A stretch of DNA of 49,837 nucleotides, the filler included, from Sphacelaria rigidula (lineage: Eukaryota), in NCBI GenBank assembly GCA_964200075.2. It is 2 parts of 2 records of this genome, joined end to end, with 100 filler letters (N's around TTAATTAATTAA, not from the genome) between each part and the next. Parts side by side here need not be neighbours in the genome. Positions count along the whole stretch, not along the records: positions 1 to 24,878 come from CAXNAA020000187.1; 1 more part is not named here. The stretch is one strand, 5' to 3'. A program made the translations under genes and the position numbers. This document shows, piece after piece, positions 17,701-24,500 of this stretch; the first letter of the stretch is position 1, and each line of letters opens with the position of its first letter. The notes below the pieces were generated by a model. It made no database searches and was not told the origin of the DNA. It was given only the letters and a program-made list of their open reading frames with translations.

Positions 17701-20700
17701 GTCTGTGTACCCAGTACCGACGTGAAAATTTGTGATGGTAATCAAGGATGGAAATTTCCACGAACTGTCGAAACGAAAGTTGGTGATTTCTAATTTGAAC
17801 GTCTTGCTCACACACGTGCCTTCCCGGTCTTCTTCAAAACGTACCTCCGGGTCGTCTTTGAGGGGAAAGGACACAACCACCGCGGGATCCGACACGTCCT
17901 TGTAGTTCAACCCTGCCTCGAAGTTACTGAGCGGTGTGGCGCAGGCCGTCGAGAAAGGCATGACCTTGTATCCGCGGTAGACGAGACCCTTCTCGTGCAG
18001 GGTCTTAAAAACCCACCACACGCTTTCCATAAACCAAGGGTCCTGTTTCCGGAAGCAAATCAAGCACATAATAATGAGACAAATTCAATATTTCCATATT
18101 TGACGGGTACAAGCGTATGTGAAGCTAGGTCAATTCATCGCCTCCTGAAAACGACACCCGGAAGAATTGGAAATCCTCCGGATCCTTGTCGTAGCCACCT
18201 CACCATGGTTTTGTAGTCGTTTTGGAAGTCGATCCACCGTCCCAAACGCTTGATCGTAACTTCCCACTCCTTCGAGTAGCGCGTCACGATGCTACGGCAG
18301 TGCTGGTTGTAGGTCTTGATTCCCATCTCAAGGACCTGGTCGCGGTGTTTGATGTTGAGCGCCTGATCGATCTCGTATTCCACCGGCAGACCGTGACAAT
18401 CCCAACCGGCTCGTCGAGAGACGTAGTGACCCGACTGGTGGGCGTATCGCGTCACGGCATCCTTGATGGTGCCTGGACATACAAGGGTTACCAACATTAC
18501 CCAACAGTTAGCTGCAGTTTCCCGGCCCATGCTGGAACTCAACGCCCTCGCATTCCTTTGGTTGATACGTCGAAAGTAGTACATCACGTACGCACGTCAT
18601 GAGTGACTGCACACATTTCGGAATAAAATGCGAATATCAACTGAAACCGCGGTGCTCGGAGAGGACGAGCCGCAGCCTCACAACAACGAGCGGAAAAAAG
18701 AGGCACACGCGCACTTCCGTGCATTCCGCAGTGGGGGGATTTGGGAGTATCACAATAGATGTGCTCCTGCGCGGTCTACATCTCTACAACACTGCTTGGT
18801 GTGAGGCTAGTAGGTTCACCCCCTGCGGAAAGAGCGGCGATCTGGTTCGCAGAAGTCACTCAAACGATTTCACATTTGCATGGCTACACTGGCTCGTTCA
18901 TATCCGACGGTCACTGCTCAAGTGAAGGTGATGCCAGCTCGGCATGGAGTCGACGTTGAGCATTCCACAGCCCACACAAAATGCATGCTCTCACGCACTC
19001 GCAGGTTTTACATTTAGTATTTCAAAACCACATCTATCGCTGACACACTGGCATCAACACCACGCAGGGTGATGTAAGATTGAACGGTTGGCCGACACTG
19101 GCGGATGACAGCAGATCTTCTCTGATTATCCTGGGCACGAAGCTGAGGGGCCACAGTTATGTTCGGTTTCACACGGAAGAATCTTACCGTGGGCGGCAAA
19201 AAAATGTGTGCCTTCCAGGACGAAGCGGACATGAGACGATAGCTCAGTTCAAACTTCCAGCCTGCTTAGAATGCGCACTGTGCGGAGACAACTTGAACGA
19301 ACACAGGCGGGATCGAGTTCCCGCAGCTACTGCGGCCCGTGTATACCATGACAGAAAACATACGTTTATTCGGACACCACGGCAGACTTTTACGCTCATC
19401 AGCCGTCATGGTACGGGGCCATTCCCGAGATATCAAGATTATTAAGGGACATTCGTGAACTGTTCATCCTAGACTAGTGTGCCATCGCCTCGGGGCAGCG
19501 CCAGCCTTGGGAATATCAAGAGGCGGGTCTGCACGGTAAGCAAAGGCATCCGCGTACCTGCCACCCGTCCCACCCGAAAATGGGCGGGACGAGGGAGGCG
19601 TCCACGGTCTTTCATGTTCCTGCGTTTTCAGAGTTGCGTTCACGGCGACGCCGGCTCCGTCCAAACAAAGTTTGACGAAGACAGCGGGCTAACGCAGCCT
19701 CAAGTTTCTGACAGGGTTTCGTTGAAACAATCATGGTACGCTCCCACGTGAATACACGCAGAAAGAGAACAAGACGATGCGGGTATGGCAGCTCCTGGAC
19801 GATCAAGGACTACAAACATTTCTCAGCATCCGTACACCCCTCCACCTAGATGACACCGTTTTTTTGCACGTTTTACGGATCATTAGCGATCCGTTCATAA
19901 AAGTAGTGCTGATCAGAAATTAAATGAGACGGATGATATGTAACAAGGTAATCTTCGGGGTTAAACATGTCTAGGTGACACCATCTCACCGGCGAGAATG
20001 TGCCCGTAATGGGGCAGCCCTGTGGCGAACGGTGGCCCATCGTAGAAGGTGAACTCCGGCCGTCCTTCACTGAGCCTCAAGGTCTCTTTAAACGTGCCAT
20101 TTTCCTCCCACGACGCCTTGTTTTTCATCGATCACGTGAAGAGAGTCCCAGTCATTTCTCAGAACACAAGAATTTTGTGGAGTTGATATATCGGGCTGCG
20201 ATGTGTCTACGGTTGATTTCACTTGGTTCGAGTGTAGACAGGCCAAAGCCGCATCTTCAGTGGGGCTGACAACGCCGTGGGCTCATGGGGAGCGCAGAAA
20301 GCAATTTCGTTCAAATCGGCGTCAACGCCGCACTTCGCCTGGGGAATCTCGTGCGTCTCCCTTGCCCGAGAGTACTTGGTACGCCTCCGGTTGGGGTTGG
20401 GGTTAAAGTCAACGATAGCTGTCAAATGTGTCAACCACGAAAGGACTGCAGCGGCGACGCCGGTTCCACCACCTCCATGAGTGAGTCAAAACGACAGGGC
20501 AATCAAGATCGAAATGCGGGAAAATCAGTCAGATTGCGAAACGAAAAGCGGACCCACCACGGACGAACTGGGGCTTCCATGTGCTGTTTATGCGTCTGGA
20601 GCAACAGCAAACACCTGATAAAACTGTTAGCTGATGTACGTGACGTTGGATGCGGTGAGATCGGTCAAGAAGGATAGCGAAAGGCGACAGAAACACCCAC

Positions 20701-21575
20701 TCGGACCACGAATAACTCATCCGAATATTTCACAGACCAAGCTGCGAGGCATTGATATCCGAGTTCCAGGTGGTATCGGTGCCACTTGTTCCACATACGT
20801 CATGGAGTTGAGCGGAGGGTGTAAGTAATTTTCAAGAGCGACCAAAGTGTGCCATCGCCTCGGGGCAGCGCCAGCCTTGTGATCGGTAATAGAGGCAAGT
20901 CTGCACGGTAAGCGAAGGCTTCCGCGTACCTGCCGCCCGTCCCGCTCGGTACGAGGGGGACGGGGGAGGCGTCCACGGGTTTTCATATTCCTGCGTTTTC
21001 AGAGTTGCATTCACGGCGACGCCGGCTTCGTTCAAACGGAGTTAGACACCGCCAGCGGGCTAATGCAGCCTCAAGTTTCCAACAGGTGTTTGCGAATTTT
21101 GCTACCCTCACATTCTACGAATTTTCGTCCGCGTAAAAAATCAACTCCACTGTACTTGATGGTGCGGGGGTATTGCAGTACACGCCTTGAAGACGTCACA
21201 AGGGTGCACGACTGACCCGACTGCCGGCACAGATGAGATAGACGACATGCGTAGGCAGAAACCGGGACAAACCTGATGGTTAACGTGAGACCCGTTCAAG
21301 TTTTCAGAGGCAGTAATGGAGGAAGAAACCGTTTATTAGAATGCAGGACAGCTGGCAGCAAGCGACTCTCATTGCACGTTGCCAAACCTTTCGATCCGAC
21401 AGAACTAGAGGCAACAGAACCCTCCCTTGTGCGCTCGAAAATATTTGCTCCGTTACGGACAAATGCGGGGAAATAGTGTTGCTACGGGACTGACAGCCAA
21501 TCTCCATTCTTGCCGACTCACCGCAATTTTCGCCTCTTCTGCTGAAAAGTTGATCGCACCCTCGATGTCCTCCAT
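2552..21575 (-). CDS. IARS1: Cytosolic isoleucine--tRNA ligase (class I aaRS), spliced gene of 24 coding exons, ~1169 aa
   Basis: Joined exons give [20 protein letters not shown] (HIGH motif), [21 protein letters not shown] and [16 protein letters not shown] (editing domain), [24 protein letters not shown] and [12 protein letters not shown] (KMSKS motif). All introns are GT-AG, phases match, total 3510 nt, stop TGA at 2552-2554. An alternative in-frame ATG at 21593 adds MKGIAF. Confidence 0.96.
3095..3313 (-). CDS. IARS1: IleRS exon 23
   Basis: [10 protein letters not shown]...RPCVSINK; cag|, |GTGAGC. Confidence 0.85.
3439..3528 (-). CDS. IARS1: IleRS exon 22
   Basis: [30 protein letters not shown]; cag|, |GTGAGA. 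Confidence 0.93.
4012..4161 (-). CDS. IARS1: IleRS exon 21
   Basis: [11 protein letters not shown]...[10 protein letters not shown]; cag|, |GTGACC. Confidence 0.9.
4346..4495 (-). CDS. IARS1: IleRS exon 20
   Basis: [27 protein letters not shown]...; cag|, |GTAACC. Confidence 0.91.
4781..4976 (-). CDS. IARS1: IleRS exon 19
   Basis: VDERTE...[16 protein letters not shown]...ELNAWE; cag|, |GTGAGG. Confidence 0.93.
5129..5324 (-). CDS. IARS1: IleRS exon 18
   Basis: LYCMYEVL...[10 protein letters not shown]...SVHML; cag|, |GTAATA. Confidence 0.94.
5558..8060. repeat. Intronic tandem array, ~330-bp period, about 7 diverged units plus a partial unit
   Basis: Core ...CCGTTATCAGCGGT.TTCCGCGT...AGAAGTCA...GCAAATCTTCA..GACCT recurs at ~5560, 5840, 6235, 6563, 6890, 7228, 7560 and partially at 7855. 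Confidence 0.9.
8216..8360 (-). CDS. IARS1: IleRS exon 17
   Basis: [18 protein letters not shown]...[15 protein letters not shown]; tag|, |GTATAA. Confidence 0.94.
8801..8917 (-). CDS. IARS1: IleRS exon 16
   Basis: ARRLE...[18 protein letters not shown]; aag|, |GTGTGT. Confidence 0.9.
9435..9604 (-). CDS. IARS1: IleRS exon 15
   Basis: [26 protein letters not shown]...FFVQQ; tag|, |GTGTGA. Confidence 0.95.
9917..10055 (-). CDS. IARS1: IleRS exon 14 (KMSKR motif)
   Basis: TRGWFYTL...[20 protein letters not shown]; cag|, |GTGAAA. Confidence 0.95.
10332..10454 (-). CDS. IARS1: IleRS exon 13
   Basis: [13 protein letters not shown]...[11 protein letters not shown]; cag|, |GTGTGT. Confidence 0.95.
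10705..10788 (-). CDS. IARS1: IleRS exon 12
   Basis: [28 protein letters not shown]; cag|, |GTGAGG. Confidence 0.94.
11273..11411 (-). CDS. IARS1: IleRS exon 11
   Basis: [22 protein letters not shown]...; cag|, |GTCAGG. Confidence 0.95.
11672..11827 (-). CDS. IARS1: IleRS exon 10
   Basis: [21 protein letters not shown]...KEKRFQNW; cag|, |GTGAGA. Confidence 0.95.
12536..12655 (-). CDS. IARS1: IleRS exon 9
   Basis: [19 protein letters not shown]...NYKHS; aag|, |GTGCGT. Confidence 0.92.
12849..12943 (-). CDS. IARS1: IleRS exon 8
   Basis: [12 protein letters not shown]...CPVDSNG; aag|, |GTGAGC. Confidence 0.93.
13403..13491 (-). ncRNA. Box C/D snoRNA, target unassigned, in IleRS intron 7
   Basis: 8-bp terminal stem GGGAACAG/CUGUUCCC directly flanks box C AUGAUGA and box D CUGA. 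Possible internal D' UUGA. 89 nt, sense to the host. Confidence 0.72.
13937..14079 (-). CDS. IARS1: IleRS exon 7
   Basis: [18 protein letters not shown]...[15 protein letters not shown]; cag|, |GTAAAC. Confidence 0.93.
14641..14760 (-). ncRNA. U14: U14 box C/D snoRNA in IleRS intron 6
   Basis: Terminal stem AGCGC/GCGCU, box C AUGAUGA, domain A CAUUCGCAGU (antisense to 18S ACUGCGAAUG), domain B UUCCUUGGAUGU directly before box D CUGA. These are the diagnostic U14 elements. Sense to the host gene. Confidence 0.93.
15292..15404 (-). CDS. IARS1: IleRS exon 6
   Basis: [20 protein letters not shown]...; cag|, |GTGAGG; phases fit both neighbours. Confidence 0.88.
16078..16294 (-). ncRNA. Long H/ACA snoRNA family 1, copy in intron 5
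   Basis: Hairpin closed by GGCCGCCU/AGGCGGCC, H box AAAGCA, second hairpin, ACA+3 nt. Paralog at 17253-17470 has compensatory stem changes. Confidence 0.75.
16745..16836 (-). CDS. IARS1: IleRS exon 5
   Basis: [22 protein letters not shown]; cag|, |GTGAGA. Confidence 0.95.
17253..17470 (-). ncRNA. Long H/ACA snoRNA family 1, copy in intron 4
   Basis: Same 5' hairpin and pocket, H box AGAUAA, 3' end GUAAACCACGCCCG-AUA-NNN (AUA variant of the ACA box). Confidence 0.72.
17845..18042 (-). CDS. IARS1: IleRS exon 4
   Basis: [13 protein letters not shown]...TPLSNFEA...DDPE; cag|, |GTACGT. Confidence 0.95.
18204..18472 (-). CDS. IARS1: IleRS exon 3
   Basis: [10 protein letters not shown]...[10 protein letters not shown]...NDYKTM; cag|, |GTGAGG. 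Confidence 0.95.
19475..19705 (-). ncRNA. Long three-hairpin H/ACA snoRNA family 2, copy in intron 2
   Basis: 5' hairpin, H box ACAUGA, internal hairpin, 3' hairpin with pocket ACCGU/CCCG 14 nt from ACA+3. Paralog at 20845-21076. Confidence 0.75.
19990..20116 (-). CDS. IARS1: IleRS exon 2 (HYGH motif)
   Basis: ASWEENGTF...[21 protein letters not shown]; aag| acceptor, |GTGAGA donor. Confidence 0.93.
20845..21076 (-). ncRNA. Long three-hairpin H/ACA snoRNA family 2, copy in intron 1
   Basis: Paralog of 19475-19705. H box AUAUGA, identical 3' pocket and ACA box, differences concentrated in apical stems and loops. Confidence 0.75.
21522..21575 (-). CDS. IARS1: IleRS exon 1 ([18 protein letters not shown])
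   Basis: ATG ... GCG|GTGAGT strong donor. Joins in frame to exon 2 (ASWEE) and resembles the F.EE..I..W N-terminus of IleRS. Confidence 0.8.
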
Positions 21576-24500
21576 GAATGCAATCCCCTTCATTTCACAT
21601 CAATATTCCGGGGCGGGAGGAAGAGGGAGGGAGGGGGGGGGGGGTATAACGACGCGGCGGTCAAGACGGGGTACACATGAGAACGACAGACACTTCAACT
21701 TCCGACGAAAATGGGGATATGATGACTAGGAGCTCATTAAAGAGGGGCCTTGCGCATGCATGCTCCCCTCTCGAGTGTGATGTCTGGTTCAACCTCAACA
21801 GGGGTCGCCAACTGATCATCATTAGGTCCACGACGTGGAGAATGGTTGTAGGAAGTACAGTGCCCATGACGGTCAGATCCCAGTGCCTATTCCAAGAGAT
21901 CTTGTATGTGCGGCATACGAAGGGATTCCGCGTTCGTTGCACCCCTCCGTAGTCACGCGTCAGATGAGAGACTCGGGCGGGGCTTGATTTCCAGTCCCTC
22001 AAGAGTGAGCCGCGACAGTTGTAGTGCAATTATGGAAACGAGGATATCGTATAGCACAACAGTGAGATGAGAAGGATACGGTGAGGCGAACACGGCTACG
22101 ATGAATTTCGACCGCAACAAGGGTGTTCCGCACCGTGGTTAATACGACAGAACTGTCAACAATGGGCTGGGCTGTACGGTAGAAGTTTGAAGTTTTGTTT
22201 CCGTGAAAATCTCTGGCTCCATCAAATCGAGTTGGAAACTCGGTGTACGCGCAGTGGGGTGGAGGTATTTTGAAGATTTTTTATTTCATTCATCTCATGC
22301 CTCACTCTCGTGCTGGAGGAAGGCGGCGGGCACACTTTCTTCTCCATACACGGGGCATTTTCCGTCAGGGCCTTTTCACTTGCGGCTCAGGGAGGATGGT
22401 CATAGAAACGACACGGAATCTTTCGACTTCGAAAGTTTTTTTTCCAACCAACTGCCATGTCTACCGTACTGGATGGAGTGGACAAGATCATTTCTCACGT
22501 GGGGGTTGGCAGGGTGCAGATTTACACTTCGTTGATGGACGTACCGACGGACGGTACAGTGAACGGCACAGTGGTGGCGACGTACAGGCGGCGAGATGGA
22601 GTTGTTTTTGTAGTAAAATCTTGGTGTTAGGAGGGCACATCAGCCGCCGATGCATGCATCGGTTGACGATCACATGCATCTCCCGATCAAGGATGTAGTG
22701 ATGAATCATGAACATCCACAGACGGGTCTGAGATACGCAACGTTTAGAACCGGTCTTCTTGGCACCCTGAGGCCGAAGGCAAGCGTGTGGACGTCCGCCG
22801 TTCAAGAGAAAAAAACACGGTACGCACAACTTGTACGCAATTTTCTTTTCACGTTTTGTCGGTAGGGTCGTGACGAAAGATGCGGCTAGGGTTTATGCTT
22901 GAATCATTTCCCCGAGTTGCGCGACACAGCTATTCACACCAACGCATCGCAAAAACGAGTACGTACTGCACGCCAACGTGCCGCACACACAAGGGCTAGT
23001 GGTGGTTGTGTTGCATTCGCAGTAGAGGGAAAAAACGAATAATTCGTGTTCGAAAGACTGGACACGATGACAAGACAAACATACGAATCGATCCTTGACC
23101 GACTCGACACGATTTTCGCCGGTGCACTATACCTTTCCTGCATGCTCTTCTTCCGCCATGTTGTAGCCCGTGATCCAATTCTCACCCACCACTTGCGATG
23201 CAGCACGGACTACCCAGCCGCTCGTGTCCAGTATGTACAGTGCGCAGACGGGGGTGGGCTTGTGCGTGAACAACAGACTAAATGCAGTTGATAAGACGCA
23301 TTGTAAAAGTCGTTCTTTAAATCCATTCGCATTTCTGTCATTATTTATGATTACTTAATTTTCCTTAGGATTTTCCCACCACGGAGGTTTGACACTCGCA
23401 GGTGCCTTTTCTTTCTAGAACTCCTCTCTTGGCAAATACTGGAGAGCGTAACTCATTAGATGGCGTTACTCTGATGTGATGTATACAGTGTTTGATTGGC
23501 ACCTTTAACCTTCCTTTCGATGACAGAATAATGGATACTGCAGGGTGGTGTGAACGAAACTCTACGGCTATCCTTTTGGATCTTGATTTTATCCAAAGCA
23601 ATTGCACTTCACTACATCGACCATAATCTACTCTGACTAAGAGCTTCAAGCCTATCGTAGAGTTTATTCTTTTTCCTGGCATAAATTACTGCACGCGATT
23701 TGATTGGACTTACGGACACTGCGGCCAACGGGACTACAATAGCCTGTAGTCAAATGTTATGAGGAAAATCAAGAAGAAGTGAGCCAGCCACAAGCGTCCA
23801 TCTCGACTAGCAGTTGGCTCTAGCTGTTCCAACATGGCTTCTTGGGTGGACGAGTCGCCGGAGGGAATCTCCGCCAACATTTCCATCACTAGTACCGATA
23901 AGTTCACCGTTCTAGATGCAGCTTCCCAGTTGCAAGCTACCAGTATAACCGACACCGGCGCAACAGTAGCGGATCGCGCTATGCCAGCAGCCAAAAGCAC
24001 TGCGGATAAGGGTAAGGGCAAGGGCAAATCCAAGGCTTCAGGCGCGACTGGAGGAGGTGGTGCTGCTAAATCACTTGCGGATGCTGCACCGGGGAAAAAA
24101 GGCAAGTTGTTGCACTGCCAAGCACCGGTACTGTGAACTGTAAATGTGCTGCTGCTGAAAAATTGCGCGAACGTTTTTAGGAACACTTTAGTTGTTTCTC
24201 CCTGAAGTGTAGGACTTGTGGTTGCCAGCAGCACGGCAACGCCGGTAGATACACCTGTCTGTGCGGAGCGCATGTGGGTACGGGCAGACGGATAACAGTG
24301 GTCATGCTAAACGAACGCGTTAAGCACCACAAGAGCGTAGTAGTTGAGCAAATCAAGAAGCAGCGAAGCTCAACCAATCGACACCTCAATCTTGAGCTGC
24401 TGTTGGCCGTGCTGCTATTAAATATTTACCGCAGCGCACAGCACAATCCATGGCGAGGATGATCCTGTAACTCCCCCTGTCTGCACTGTGGTTTTTTTAT

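What the first reader, a model, noticed from the sequence alone, without database searches (positions are those of the whole stretch)
19475..21076. Duplicated ~230-nt three-hairpin H/ACA RNA with a predicted SSU rRNA target
Seen: the two copies in consecutive introns keep stems, the H box (AYAUGA), the pockets and ACA+3, while apical loops diverge. For example the middle hairpin keeps CGUCCC/GGGACG with a wholly different top. It is much longer than the canonical two-hairpin ~130-nt H/ACA RNA. Inference, using rRNA sequence recalled from memory: the 3' pocket ACCGU/CCCG lies exactly 14 nt from ACA and fits SSU CGGG-UA-ACGG (region of human 18S psi406, guided by SNORA71). The extra hairpin suggests an additional function.
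Basis: partly seen in the sequence, partly recalled or inferred. Interest (0 to 1): 0.75.

Follow-up and report, generated by a model that had tools for sequence, protein, structure and literature searches.

The report
Twin intronic H/ACA snoRNAs, brown alga
Two diverged copies of a ~240-base RNA gene lie in neighbouring introns of a brown alga's isoleucyl-tRNA synthetase gene and look like ordinary pseudouridine-guide (H/ACA) snoRNAs with one extra stem-loop: a sound but unsurprising new gene family whose rRNA target is still unproven.

Summary
The repeat is real. Two ~240-nt copies (84% identical) lie on the minus strand at 19476-19717 and 20846-21088, and they are the only two in the window. 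Spliced RNA contigs show that they sit in two consecutive GT..AG introns of a cytosolic isoleucyl-tRNA synthetase gene, in sense orientation. The closest IleRS proteins are from Ectocarpus and Pylaiella, so the organism is a brown alga.

Both copies can fold into the same layout: 5' hairpin with a 9/7-nt pocket, H box (ACAUGA/AUAUGA), a 58-nt almost fully paired internal hairpin, 3' hairpin with a small pocket (ACCGU/CCCG), then ACA. Both pocket tops lie 13-14 nt from their box. Similarity stops 2 nt after ACA. Stems, pockets and boxes are 89-94% conserved, apical loops 42% and flanks about 30%.

I read this as a bona fide intron-encoded box H/ACA snoRNA pair (confidence 0.75). It matches no Rfam family.

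The proposed 18S target exists in 36 of 39 surrogate eukaryotic 18S sequences, but it gives only 4+4 bp (shuffle p about 0.03-0.1). A plant-type LSU site pairs better. The organism's own rRNA was not available. The 5' pocket has no surrogate rRNA match.

The "third hairpin" has neither pocket nor box. Internal hairpins are already known in snR30/U17. No orthologs were found, and expression evidence is only a weak hint.

The parts
19475..19717 (-). Copy 1 of the predicted H/ACA snoRNA (about 240 nt), inside intron 18473-19989
   Evidence: model R1, 297 bits
19619..19715 (-). Copy 1, 5' hairpin. Lower stem CCUGU/GCAGG. Pocket strands at 19702-19710 (CAGAAACUU) and 19624-19630 (UGAAAAC). Long upper stem.
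19612..19617 (-). Copy 1 H box ACAUGA (ANANNA), 1 nt after the 5' hairpin
19550..19607 (-). Copy 1 internal hairpin: 58 nt, almost fully paired, no pocket, no box
   Evidence: fold z = -4.9
19481..19547 (-). Copy 1, 3' hairpin. Pocket strands at 19533-19539 (UUACCGU) and 19489-19494 (CCCGAG).
19478..19480 (-). Copy 1 ACA box. The predicted RNA 3' end is 3 nt further, at 19475.
20845..21088 (-). Copy 2 of the predicted H/ACA snoRNA, inside intron 20117-21521
   Evidence: 295 bits
20990..21086 (-). Copy 2, 5' hairpin. Pocket strands at 21073-21081 (UGGAAACUU) and 20995-21001 (UGAAAAC).
20983..20988 (-). Copy 2 H box AUAUGA
20922..20978 (-). Copy 2 internal hairpin. The apex differs from copy 1 but is still paired.
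   Evidence: z = -3.9
20851..20919 (-). Copy 2, 3' hairpin. Pocket strands at 20905-20911 and 20859-20864, identical to copy 1.
20848..20850 (-). Copy 2 ACA box
17845..23159 (-). 5' part of the host gene, cytosolic isoleucyl-tRNA synthetase. An exon ending near 23136 holds the ATG at 23159. Further exons are 21522-21590, 19990-20116, 18204-18472 and up to 18042.
   Evidence: spliced contigs; translation; homologs 92% to Ectocarpus/Pylaiella IleRS; upstream exon

Best explanation
These are two paralogous, intron-encoded box H/ACA snoRNA genes of a brown alga.

Inferred steps:
- Each copy is transcribed as part of the isoleucyl-tRNA synthetase pre-mRNA and released from the spliced intron.
- It is trimmed by exonucleases to the borders protected by the H/ACA proteins (Cbf5/dyskerin, Nop10, Nhp2, Gar1), giving a ~240-nt RNA that ends 3 nt after ACA.
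- The 5' and 3' hairpins each carry an internal loop that would hold a target uridine 14-15 nt from the H or ACA box for isomerisation to pseudouridine.
- The 3' pocket (ACCGU/CCCG) most plausibly guides the U of the conserved 18S motif CGGG-U-R-ACGG. Alternatively it guides a large-subunit site, if the alga's LSU resembles the plant type there.
- The 5' pocket (GAAACUU/UGAAAAC) has an unknown, possibly lineage-specific target.
- The very stable hairpin between the H box and the 3' hairpin is an accessory insert, not a guide unit.

Shown: sequence, fold, boxes, spacing, selection pattern, intron position and strand.
Inferred: RNP assembly, processing, and pseudouridylation of any particular site.
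For: (1) Architecture. RNAalifold on the two copies gives 5' hairpin, hinge with ANANNA, internal hairpin, 3' hairpin, ACA. There are 71 pairs, none broken, 2 compensatory and 4 wobble changes. The best fold containing these pairs is within 1.6 kcal/mol (copy 1) and 0.2 kcal/mol (copy 2) of the MFE.

(2) Spacing. Counting columns, the 5' pocket top is 13 nt from the H box and the 3' pocket top is 13-14 nt from ACA. The review PMC7601244 gives 14-16 nt as the conserved distance.

(3) Selection pattern:
- stems 134/142 identical
- pockets 21/23
- boxes 8/9, the one change at an N of ANANNA
- apical loops 10/24
- flanks 28-31/100
Similarity ends at ACA+2.

(4) Context. Both copies are in sense orientation in consecutive GT..AG introns of a gene for the translation apparatus. 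RNA contigs bridge both introns.

(5) Not a mobile repeat. Only 2 copies are in the window. There is no target-site duplication or A-tail. Nothing else in the two introns is similar.

(6) Weak hint of a discrete RNA. One contig in a spliced-RNA run covers 20841-21092, which is copy 2 plus 4-6 nt. Contigs from two studies cover 19525-19706 and 19540-19704 inside copy 1 and stop 2 nt apart, where a DNA run continues.

(7) Target. CGGGURACGG is present in 36/39 surrogate 18S loci. 13-14 of 500 shuffled pockets match SSU as well.
Against: - There is no Rfam match at gathering thresholds and no relevant one at E<=10.
- No ortholog was found: 0 hits for the 3'-hairpin pattern in metagenome contigs, and 0 hits in 80 IleRS loci of other organisms by blastn, nhmmer, descriptor or covariance model.
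- Covariation from two sequences is not significant (119/500 shuffles).
- The two guide hairpins are not unusually stable on their own (z = -1.5 to 0).
- The contigs over the copies have low depth (3.6-4.2), like other intronic pieces, and contigs cannot show RNA ends or levels.
- The 3' pocket is small, with an 8-bp duplex for 18S. In SSU+LSU, 37-55 of 500 shuffled pockets do as well.
- The 5' pocket has no better-than-chance match in 7 surrogate rDNA units (80-168 of 300 shuffles equal it).
- The alga's own rRNA and snRNAs were never examined.
Confidence: 0.75

Rival explanations
1. It is an H/ACA snoRNA, but the 3' pocket guides a large-subunit rRNA uridine (in the helix after the conserved GGGAUGAAC stretch), or another RNA, rather than 18S.
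For: In the two plant-like rDNA loci (L028, L044) the site GCCGGG-UU-ACGGUG gives 4+6 bp. It is the best hit of the whole rDNA unit, and only 12/500 shuffled pockets reach it. By recalled sequence spacing this U is the homolog of yeast 25S psi1110, which the table in PMC5699541 lists as guided by snR82.
Against: The site is variable. Of the other LSU loci examined (L011, L020, L024, L039, L045, L048, L050) none has the ACGGU arm. The brown-algal LSU sequence is unknown here. The mapping to psi1110 rests on recall.
Confidence: 0.15
2. The conserved unit is, or also is, an intronic small-RNA (miRNA-type) precursor. The internal hairpin, a ~23-bp near-perfect duplex whose arms are conserved and whose apex diverges, would be diced into 21-22-nt RNAs.
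For: The internal hairpin is far more stable than shuffles (z = -4.9 and -3.9, 0/200 shuffles each). Its arms are conserved and its loop is not. In Ectocarpus 75% of miRNA loci lie in protein-coding genes, mostly in introns and on the host strand (PMC4513859, passages).
Against: Conservation covers the whole 240 nt, including the two flanking pocket hairpins, the H box and ACA, which a miRNA precursor does not need. No small-RNA data were available. No matching string was found in the main text of the Ectocarpus miRNA paper, and its supplements could not be opened.
Confidence: 0.07
3. It is a non-modifying, snR30/U17-like processing snoRNA whose internal hairpin recruits extra factors.
For: snR30 and U17 carry an internal hairpin, which crosslinks to Utp23, and U17 RNAs are 203-240 nt (PMC7601244, passages). 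Copy 1 has an 8/9 match to motif m1 (AUAUUCCCA).
Against: The m1-like string lies in the apical loop, not the pocket, and is not kept in copy 2. m2 (AAACCAU) is absent. The pocket strands are ACCGU/CCCG. There is no Rfam U17 hit.
Confidence: 0.03
4. It is a functionless duplicated intron segment or decayed mobile element that happens to fold.
For: No expression proof, no orthologs, no Rfam family.
Against: The 84% identity is confined exactly to the structured unit while the flanks are random (28-31/100). Substitutions avoid stems, pockets and boxes and pile up in apical loops. There is no target-site duplication or A-tail, and only two copies.
Confidence: 0.06

Closest known systems
Canonical eukaryotic box H/ACA snoRNAs (hairpin-H box-hairpin-ACA pseudouridylation guides)
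   Same: Two pocket-bearing hairpins, ANANNA in the hinge, ACA directly after the 3' stem, pocket tops 13-14 nt from the boxes, intronic location in sense orientation.
   Different: About 240 nt instead of ~130-200. A 58-nt fully paired hairpin is inserted between the H box and the 3' hairpin. No Rfam family matches.
snR30 / U17 (SNORA73)
   Same: An H/ACA RNA with a third, internal hairpin. Total length is similar to U17 (203-240 nt) (PMC7601244).
   Different: Lacks m1/m2 in the 3' pocket. Has a normal pocket in the 5' hairpin, which snR30 lacks.
Human SNORA71 paralogs (several introns of SNHG17; 18S psi406)
   Same: Several diverged copies in different introns of one host gene (PMC12776523). 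The predicted 18S target U appears to be the homologous position, by recalled numbering.
   Different: No detectable sequence or structure similarity: no Rfam hit at E<=10. The host is a protein-coding aminoacyl-tRNA synthetase gene. There is an extra hairpin.
Multi-hairpin H/ACA RNAs of archaea and some eukaryotes
   Same: More than two hairpins in one H/ACA RNA. The review states that one- and three-hairpin forms exist (PMC7601244).
   Different: In those, as I recall, each hairpin is a guide unit with its own box. Here the extra hairpin has no pocket and no box.

Membership tests
box H/ACA snoRNA | Hairpin-hinge-hairpin-tail secondary structure | tested here: met
   The consensus fold of both copies has 71 pairs, 0 broken. 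It is within 0.2-1.6 kcal/mol of the MFE. There is one additional hairpin in the hinge.
box H/ACA snoRNA | H box ANANNA in the hinge just 3' of the 5' hairpin | tested here: met
   ACAUGA / AUAUGA, 1 nt after the stem. The only difference is at an N position.
box H/ACA snoRNA | ACA exactly 3 nt from the mature 3' end | tested here: inconclusive
   ACA directly follows the 3' stem, and copy similarity ends at ACA+2. The real RNA end was not observable from contigs.
box H/ACA snoRNA | Internal-loop pocket whose top lies about 14-16 nt from the H/ACA box | tested here: met
   13 nt (5' hairpin) and 13-14 nt (3' hairpin) lie between the upper-stem base and the box. The rule is as stated in PMC7601244.
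box H/ACA snoRNA | Bipartite complementarity of the pocket to rRNA/snRNA around an unpaired U-N | tested here: inconclusive
   3' pocket: 4+4 bp to the 18S motif present in 36/39 surrogate loci, and 4+6 bp to a plant-type LSU site. 5' pocket: nothing above chance. The organism's own rRNA was not available.
box H/ACA snoRNA | Stable RNA bound by Cbf5/Nop10/Nhp2/Gar1 | not testable with these tools
   Only low-depth contigs over the copies.
Any curated Rfam H/ACA family (incl. SNORA71, SNORA73/U17) | Score at or above the family's gathering threshold | tested here: not met
   0 hits in the window. At E<=10 there was only a spurious IRES_TrkB hit.
snR30/U17 | Motifs m1 (AUAUUCCUA) and m2 (AAACCAU) on opposite strands of the 3' hairpin pocket | tested here: not met
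   The pocket strands are UUACCGU / CCCGAG. An m1-like 8/9 string occurs only in the apical loop of copy 1. There is no m2.
SINE / retroposed snoRNA copy | Target-site duplications, A-rich tail, many dispersed copies | tested here: not met
   The longest flank repeats are 6-7 nt and lie 35 nt away from the element ends. There is no A-tail. 2 copies in 49.8 kb. The whole genome was not held.
miRNA precursor | Hairpin yielding a discrete 20-24-nt duplex | not testable with these tools
   The internal hairpin is a suitable duplex, but no small-RNA reads were available.

The most novel reading that the evidence does not exclude
The conserved, unusually stable internal hairpin gives the RNA a second job besides pseudouridine guiding. 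It could be a Dicer substrate, which would make this a snoRNA-embedded miRNA in the brown-algal lineage that evolved miRNAs independently. Or it could be a docking site for a ribosome-assembly factor, as in snR30. The orphan 5' pocket would then serve a non-rRNA or lineage-specific target.
Probability: 0.1. Interest if true: 0.55.

Novelty: new member of a known kind. Interest (0 to 1): 0.3.

Why it matters
Brown algae are an independent multicellular lineage. In the papers I could search, their snoRNAs are known only from bulk computer predictions (Ectocarpus: ACAseeker/CDseeker, PMC4513859). Two searches turned up no characterised brown-algal H/ACA RNA.

A well-delimited paralog pair with two conserved pockets gives three things:
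- a concrete probe for mapping rRNA pseudouridines in this lineage;
- a seed model (R1) for finding the family in other stramenopiles;
- a small natural experiment on what an internal hairpin adds to an H/ACA RNP.

It does not challenge current understanding of snoRNAs.

Tried and rejected
- Whole genome not held, so the alga's own rRNA and snRNAs and the genome-wide copy number could not be examined.
- Rfam calls with several loci failed internally. A single-locus call worked.
- Sequencing runs: no RNA holder listed. Four runs were marked 'RNA?' only by guess. Two of them, once laid, held spliced contigs.
- In those runs parts of the introns next to the copies had no cover.
- Positions of the roughly 2% differences in the related-strain DNA run (X7) inside the copies were not shown (54 rows cut).
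- Metagenome scan for the 3'-hairpin pattern: 0 hits.
- Metagenome scan for IleRS relatives: 80 loci kept, best 81% identity, so no close brown-algal relatives. No snoRNA-like element was found in them by blastn, nhmmer, pocket descriptors (3 chance hits, none a hairpin candidate) or model R1.
- Surrogate rRNA: 47 contaminant eukaryotic 18S loci from prokaryote assemblies, fetched with primer NS3, and 3 LSU-bearing viral-collection contigs. None could be assigned to brown algae.
- A brown-alga-specific primer (DICI) is named in a preprint, but its sequence is not given there.
- U17/snR30 identity rejected (no m1/m2 in the pocket).
- scaRNA reading not supported: I saw no UGAG (CAB box, recalled motif) in the apical loops read.
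- K-turn in the internal hairpin rejected by eye: no tandem G.A pairs next to the 3-nt bulge.
- SNORA71/406 check: PMC8522698 held nothing on site 406.
- One search ('box H ACA' + 'internal hairpin' + snoRNA) found 0 papers. Searches were syntax errors and were re-sent.
Full report
**Observation.**
The window holds two copies of a ~240-nt element on the minus strand.
- Copy 1 is at about 19476-19717 and copy 2 at about 20846-21088.
- The repeat finder gives three collinear ungapped blocks, 87-97% identical, 1370-1372 nt apart.
- blastn gives 84.3% identity over 242 nt and no further copy in the 49.8-kb window.
- A covariance model built from the pair finds only these two, at 297 and 295 bits. 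It also hits the antisense of the near-palindromic middle hairpin.
- The alignment shows that similarity starts a few nt before CCUGU and stops at ACACU.
- The next 100 nt on either side are 31/100 and 28/100 identical, which is random.

**Context.**
- No whole genome is held for this window.
- Minus-strand ORF pieces encode a class I aminoacyl-tRNA synthetase.
- The 89-aa exon 18204-18470 is 92% identical to isoleucyl-tRNA synthetases of Ectocarpus fasciculatus, E. siliculosus and Pylaiella littoralis. It is 82-83% identical to those of other ochrophytes. The organism is therefore a brown alga.
- Two runs that the tool labels 'RNA?' by guess hold contigs that skip 18042/3-18202/3, 18472/3-19988/9 and 20116/7-21520/1, each with CT..AC ends on the plus strand.
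- Read on the minus strand these are GT..AG introns. The joined exons translate into an uninterrupted IleRS N-terminus.
- A loose end at 21590 joins to an upstream exon ending near 23136 that carries an in-frame ATG.
- Copy 2 therefore lies 434-676 nt into the 1405-nt intron. Copy 1 lies 273-514 nt into the next intron, which is 1517 nt long. Both are in sense orientation.
- Nothing else in the two introns is alike.
- One run's main contig instead runs unspliced from 19989 to 20544. That may be intron retention or an alternative start.

**Anatomy.**
RNAalifold on the two copies gives three hairpins with 71 pairs.
1. A 97-nt 5' hairpin.
   - Its 5-bp lower stem is CCUGU/GCAGG.
   - Its internal loop has 9 nt (CAGAAACUU in copy 1, UGGAAACUU in copy 2) and 7 nt (UGAAAAC in both).
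   - It has a long upper stem.
   - One nt later comes ACAUGA (copy 1) or AUAUGA (copy 2), both fitting ANANNA.
2. After 4 nt, a 57-58-nt hairpin.
   - It is paired almost throughout. Its only internal loop is 3x1 nt.
   - No ANANNA or ACA follows it.
3. After 2 nt, a 67-69-nt 3' hairpin.
   - Its lower stem is GCCUUYGC(UU)/(AG)GCGAUGGC.
   - Its pocket strands are (UU)ACCGU and CCCG(AG), identical in both copies.
   - ACA follows directly.

The upper-stem base is 13 nt from the H box in hairpin 1 and 13-14 nt from ACA in hairpin 3. A review gives 14-16 nt as the conserved distance for H/ACA pockets (PMC7601244, passages).

Energetics:
- The best fold containing these pairs is -101.0 against an MFE of -102.6 kcal/mol for copy 1.
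- It is -92.4 against -92.6 kcal/mol for copy 2. This explains why the plain MFE of copy 2 looked different.
- On their own the two pocket hairpins are not exceptional (z = -1.5, 0.0, -1.5, -0.9).
- The middle hairpin is (z = -4.9 and -3.9, 0 of 200 shuffles each).

**Selection pattern.**
Identity between the copies, sorted by structural class:
- stems: 134/142
- pocket strands: 21/23; the two changes are at the distal end of the 5' pocket
- boxes: 8/9; the change is at an N of ANANNA
- apical loops: 10/24
- other unpaired positions: 20/32 and 11/17

Of the 71 pairs, 2 changed on both sides and stayed paired, 4 changed to or from G-U, and none broke. With two sequences this is not statistically significant: 119 of 500 column shuffles do as well. 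The argument therefore rests on where the substitutions fall, not on formal covariation.

There is no target-site duplication. The longest words shared by the flanks are 6-7 nt and lie about 35 nt from the element ends. There is also no A-rich tail.

**Expression.**
- No listed holder was on record as RNA. Contigs cannot show ends or levels.
- One contig of a spliced-RNA run covers 20841-21092, which is copy 2 plus 4-6 nt. Another covers 19525-19706 within copy 1.
- A run of a second study, labelled as another organism, holds from this 4.2-kb stretch a 165-nt contig (19540-19704) identical to copy 1, plus two short poor matches elsewhere.
- The two copy-1 contigs stop 2 nt apart where a DNA run continues.
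- Depths are 3.6-4.2, no higher than other intronic pieces.
- I count this as a weak hint only.

**Targets.**
The alga's rRNA could not be obtained. As surrogates I used:
- 47 eukaryotic 18S-bearing contaminant contigs from prokaryote assemblies. One has a complete rDNA unit and six have partial LSU.
- Three LSU-bearing contigs from the viral collection.

For the 3' pocket:
CGGGURACGG is present in 36 of 39 loci that cover the region.
- The looser GGGURACGG occurs in 38 loci.
- The duplex is 4+4 Watson-Crick pairs.
- In a fungal-like locus the U is at position 360. Using recalled yeast and human 2'-O-methyl positions as rulers, this is yeast U358 and human U406.
- A preprint passage says the SNORA71 copies, spread over introns of SNHG17, guide 18S-406 (PMC12776523).
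- Shuffled pockets reach the same score in 13-14 of 500 trials on SSU alone, and in 37-55 of 500 on SSU+LSU.

A better duplex occurs in the two plant-like LSU loci:
- CGGG-UU-ACGGUG gives 4+6 bp and is reached by 12 of 500 shuffles.
- From recalled spacing to psi1124 and Am1133, this U should be the homolog of yeast psi1110. All three positions are listed in PMC5699541.
- That stretch varies among the other LSU loci examined (L011, L020, L024, L039, L045, L048, L050). None of them has the ACGGU arm.

For the 5' pocket, no site in 7 surrogate rDNA units exceeds chance: 80-168 of 300 shuffles do as well.

So the 18S prediction is plausible but unproven. An LSU target is a live rival. The 5' pocket is an orphan for now.

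**Comparison with known RNAs.**
- Rfam gives nothing at gathering scores in the whole window. At E<=10 it gives only a spurious IRES hit. The RNA therefore belongs to no curated family, SNORA71 and U17 included.
- The review PMC7601244 states that eukaryotic H/ACA RNAs with one or three hairpins exist. It also states that snR30, U17 and some other H/ACA RNAs carry an internal hairpin. In snR30 this hairpin is dispensable for viability and crosslinks to Utp23.
- The present RNA is not U17. m1/m2 are not in its pocket. An 8/9 m1-like string sits in the apical loop of copy 1 only.
- In Ectocarpus, snoRNAs have only been predicted in bulk. Searches found no characterised brown-algal H/ACA RNA in the library.
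- Ectocarpus miRNA loci are mostly intronic and on the host strand. This keeps a small-RNA role for the internal hairpin open as a minor rival.

**Orthologs.**
None were found.
- The 3'-hairpin pattern has 0 exact matches in metagenome contigs.
- The 80 best IleRS loci from metagenomes are at most 81% identical in the exon. They contain nothing resembling the RNA.
- The related-strain DNA run holds both copies, but the positions of its differences were not listed.

**Verdict.**
- The H/ACA reading is well supported by anatomy, spacing, selection pattern and intronic context (0.75).
- The specific 18S target is possible (about 0.3) but rests on 8 bp and on surrogate rRNA.
- The 'third hairpin' is an accessory insert with precedent, not a third guide unit.
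- I class this as a new member of a known kind, of modest interest.

Noticed in passing
window 20117-20544: In one RNA run the high-depth IleRS contig runs unspliced from exon 19990-20116 up to 20544, instead of splicing to 21521 as in the other run. This may be intron retention or an alternative start downstream of copy 2.
   Followed up: no
window 20357-20437: A short GGGTT/GGGGTT-type (telomere-like) degenerate repeat inside the copy-2 intron. It attracts many partial matches with loose ends from metagenome and RNA contigs, so it is a dispersed simple repeat.
   Followed up: no
window 21591-23135 and 23136-23159: A further ~1.5-kb intron lies upstream of the two snoRNA-bearing introns. The exon before it carries an in-frame ATG (MAEEEHAG...). 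The three successive introns are of similar length (1545, 1405, 1517 nt), but only the snoRNA is shared between the latter two.
   Followed up: partly
window 21618-21645: A run of G (about 11) within a purine-rich stretch just upstream of exon 21522-21590 on the plus strand. A short contig from the second organism's run ends in Gs there.
   Followed up: no
window about 24879-24978 and about 36460: 90 N in the window in at least two blocks, which are assembly gaps.
   Followed up: no
L045 5472-5734: The complete contaminant rDNA unit in a Saprospiraceae MAG carries a group I intron in its 18S gene.
   Followed up: no
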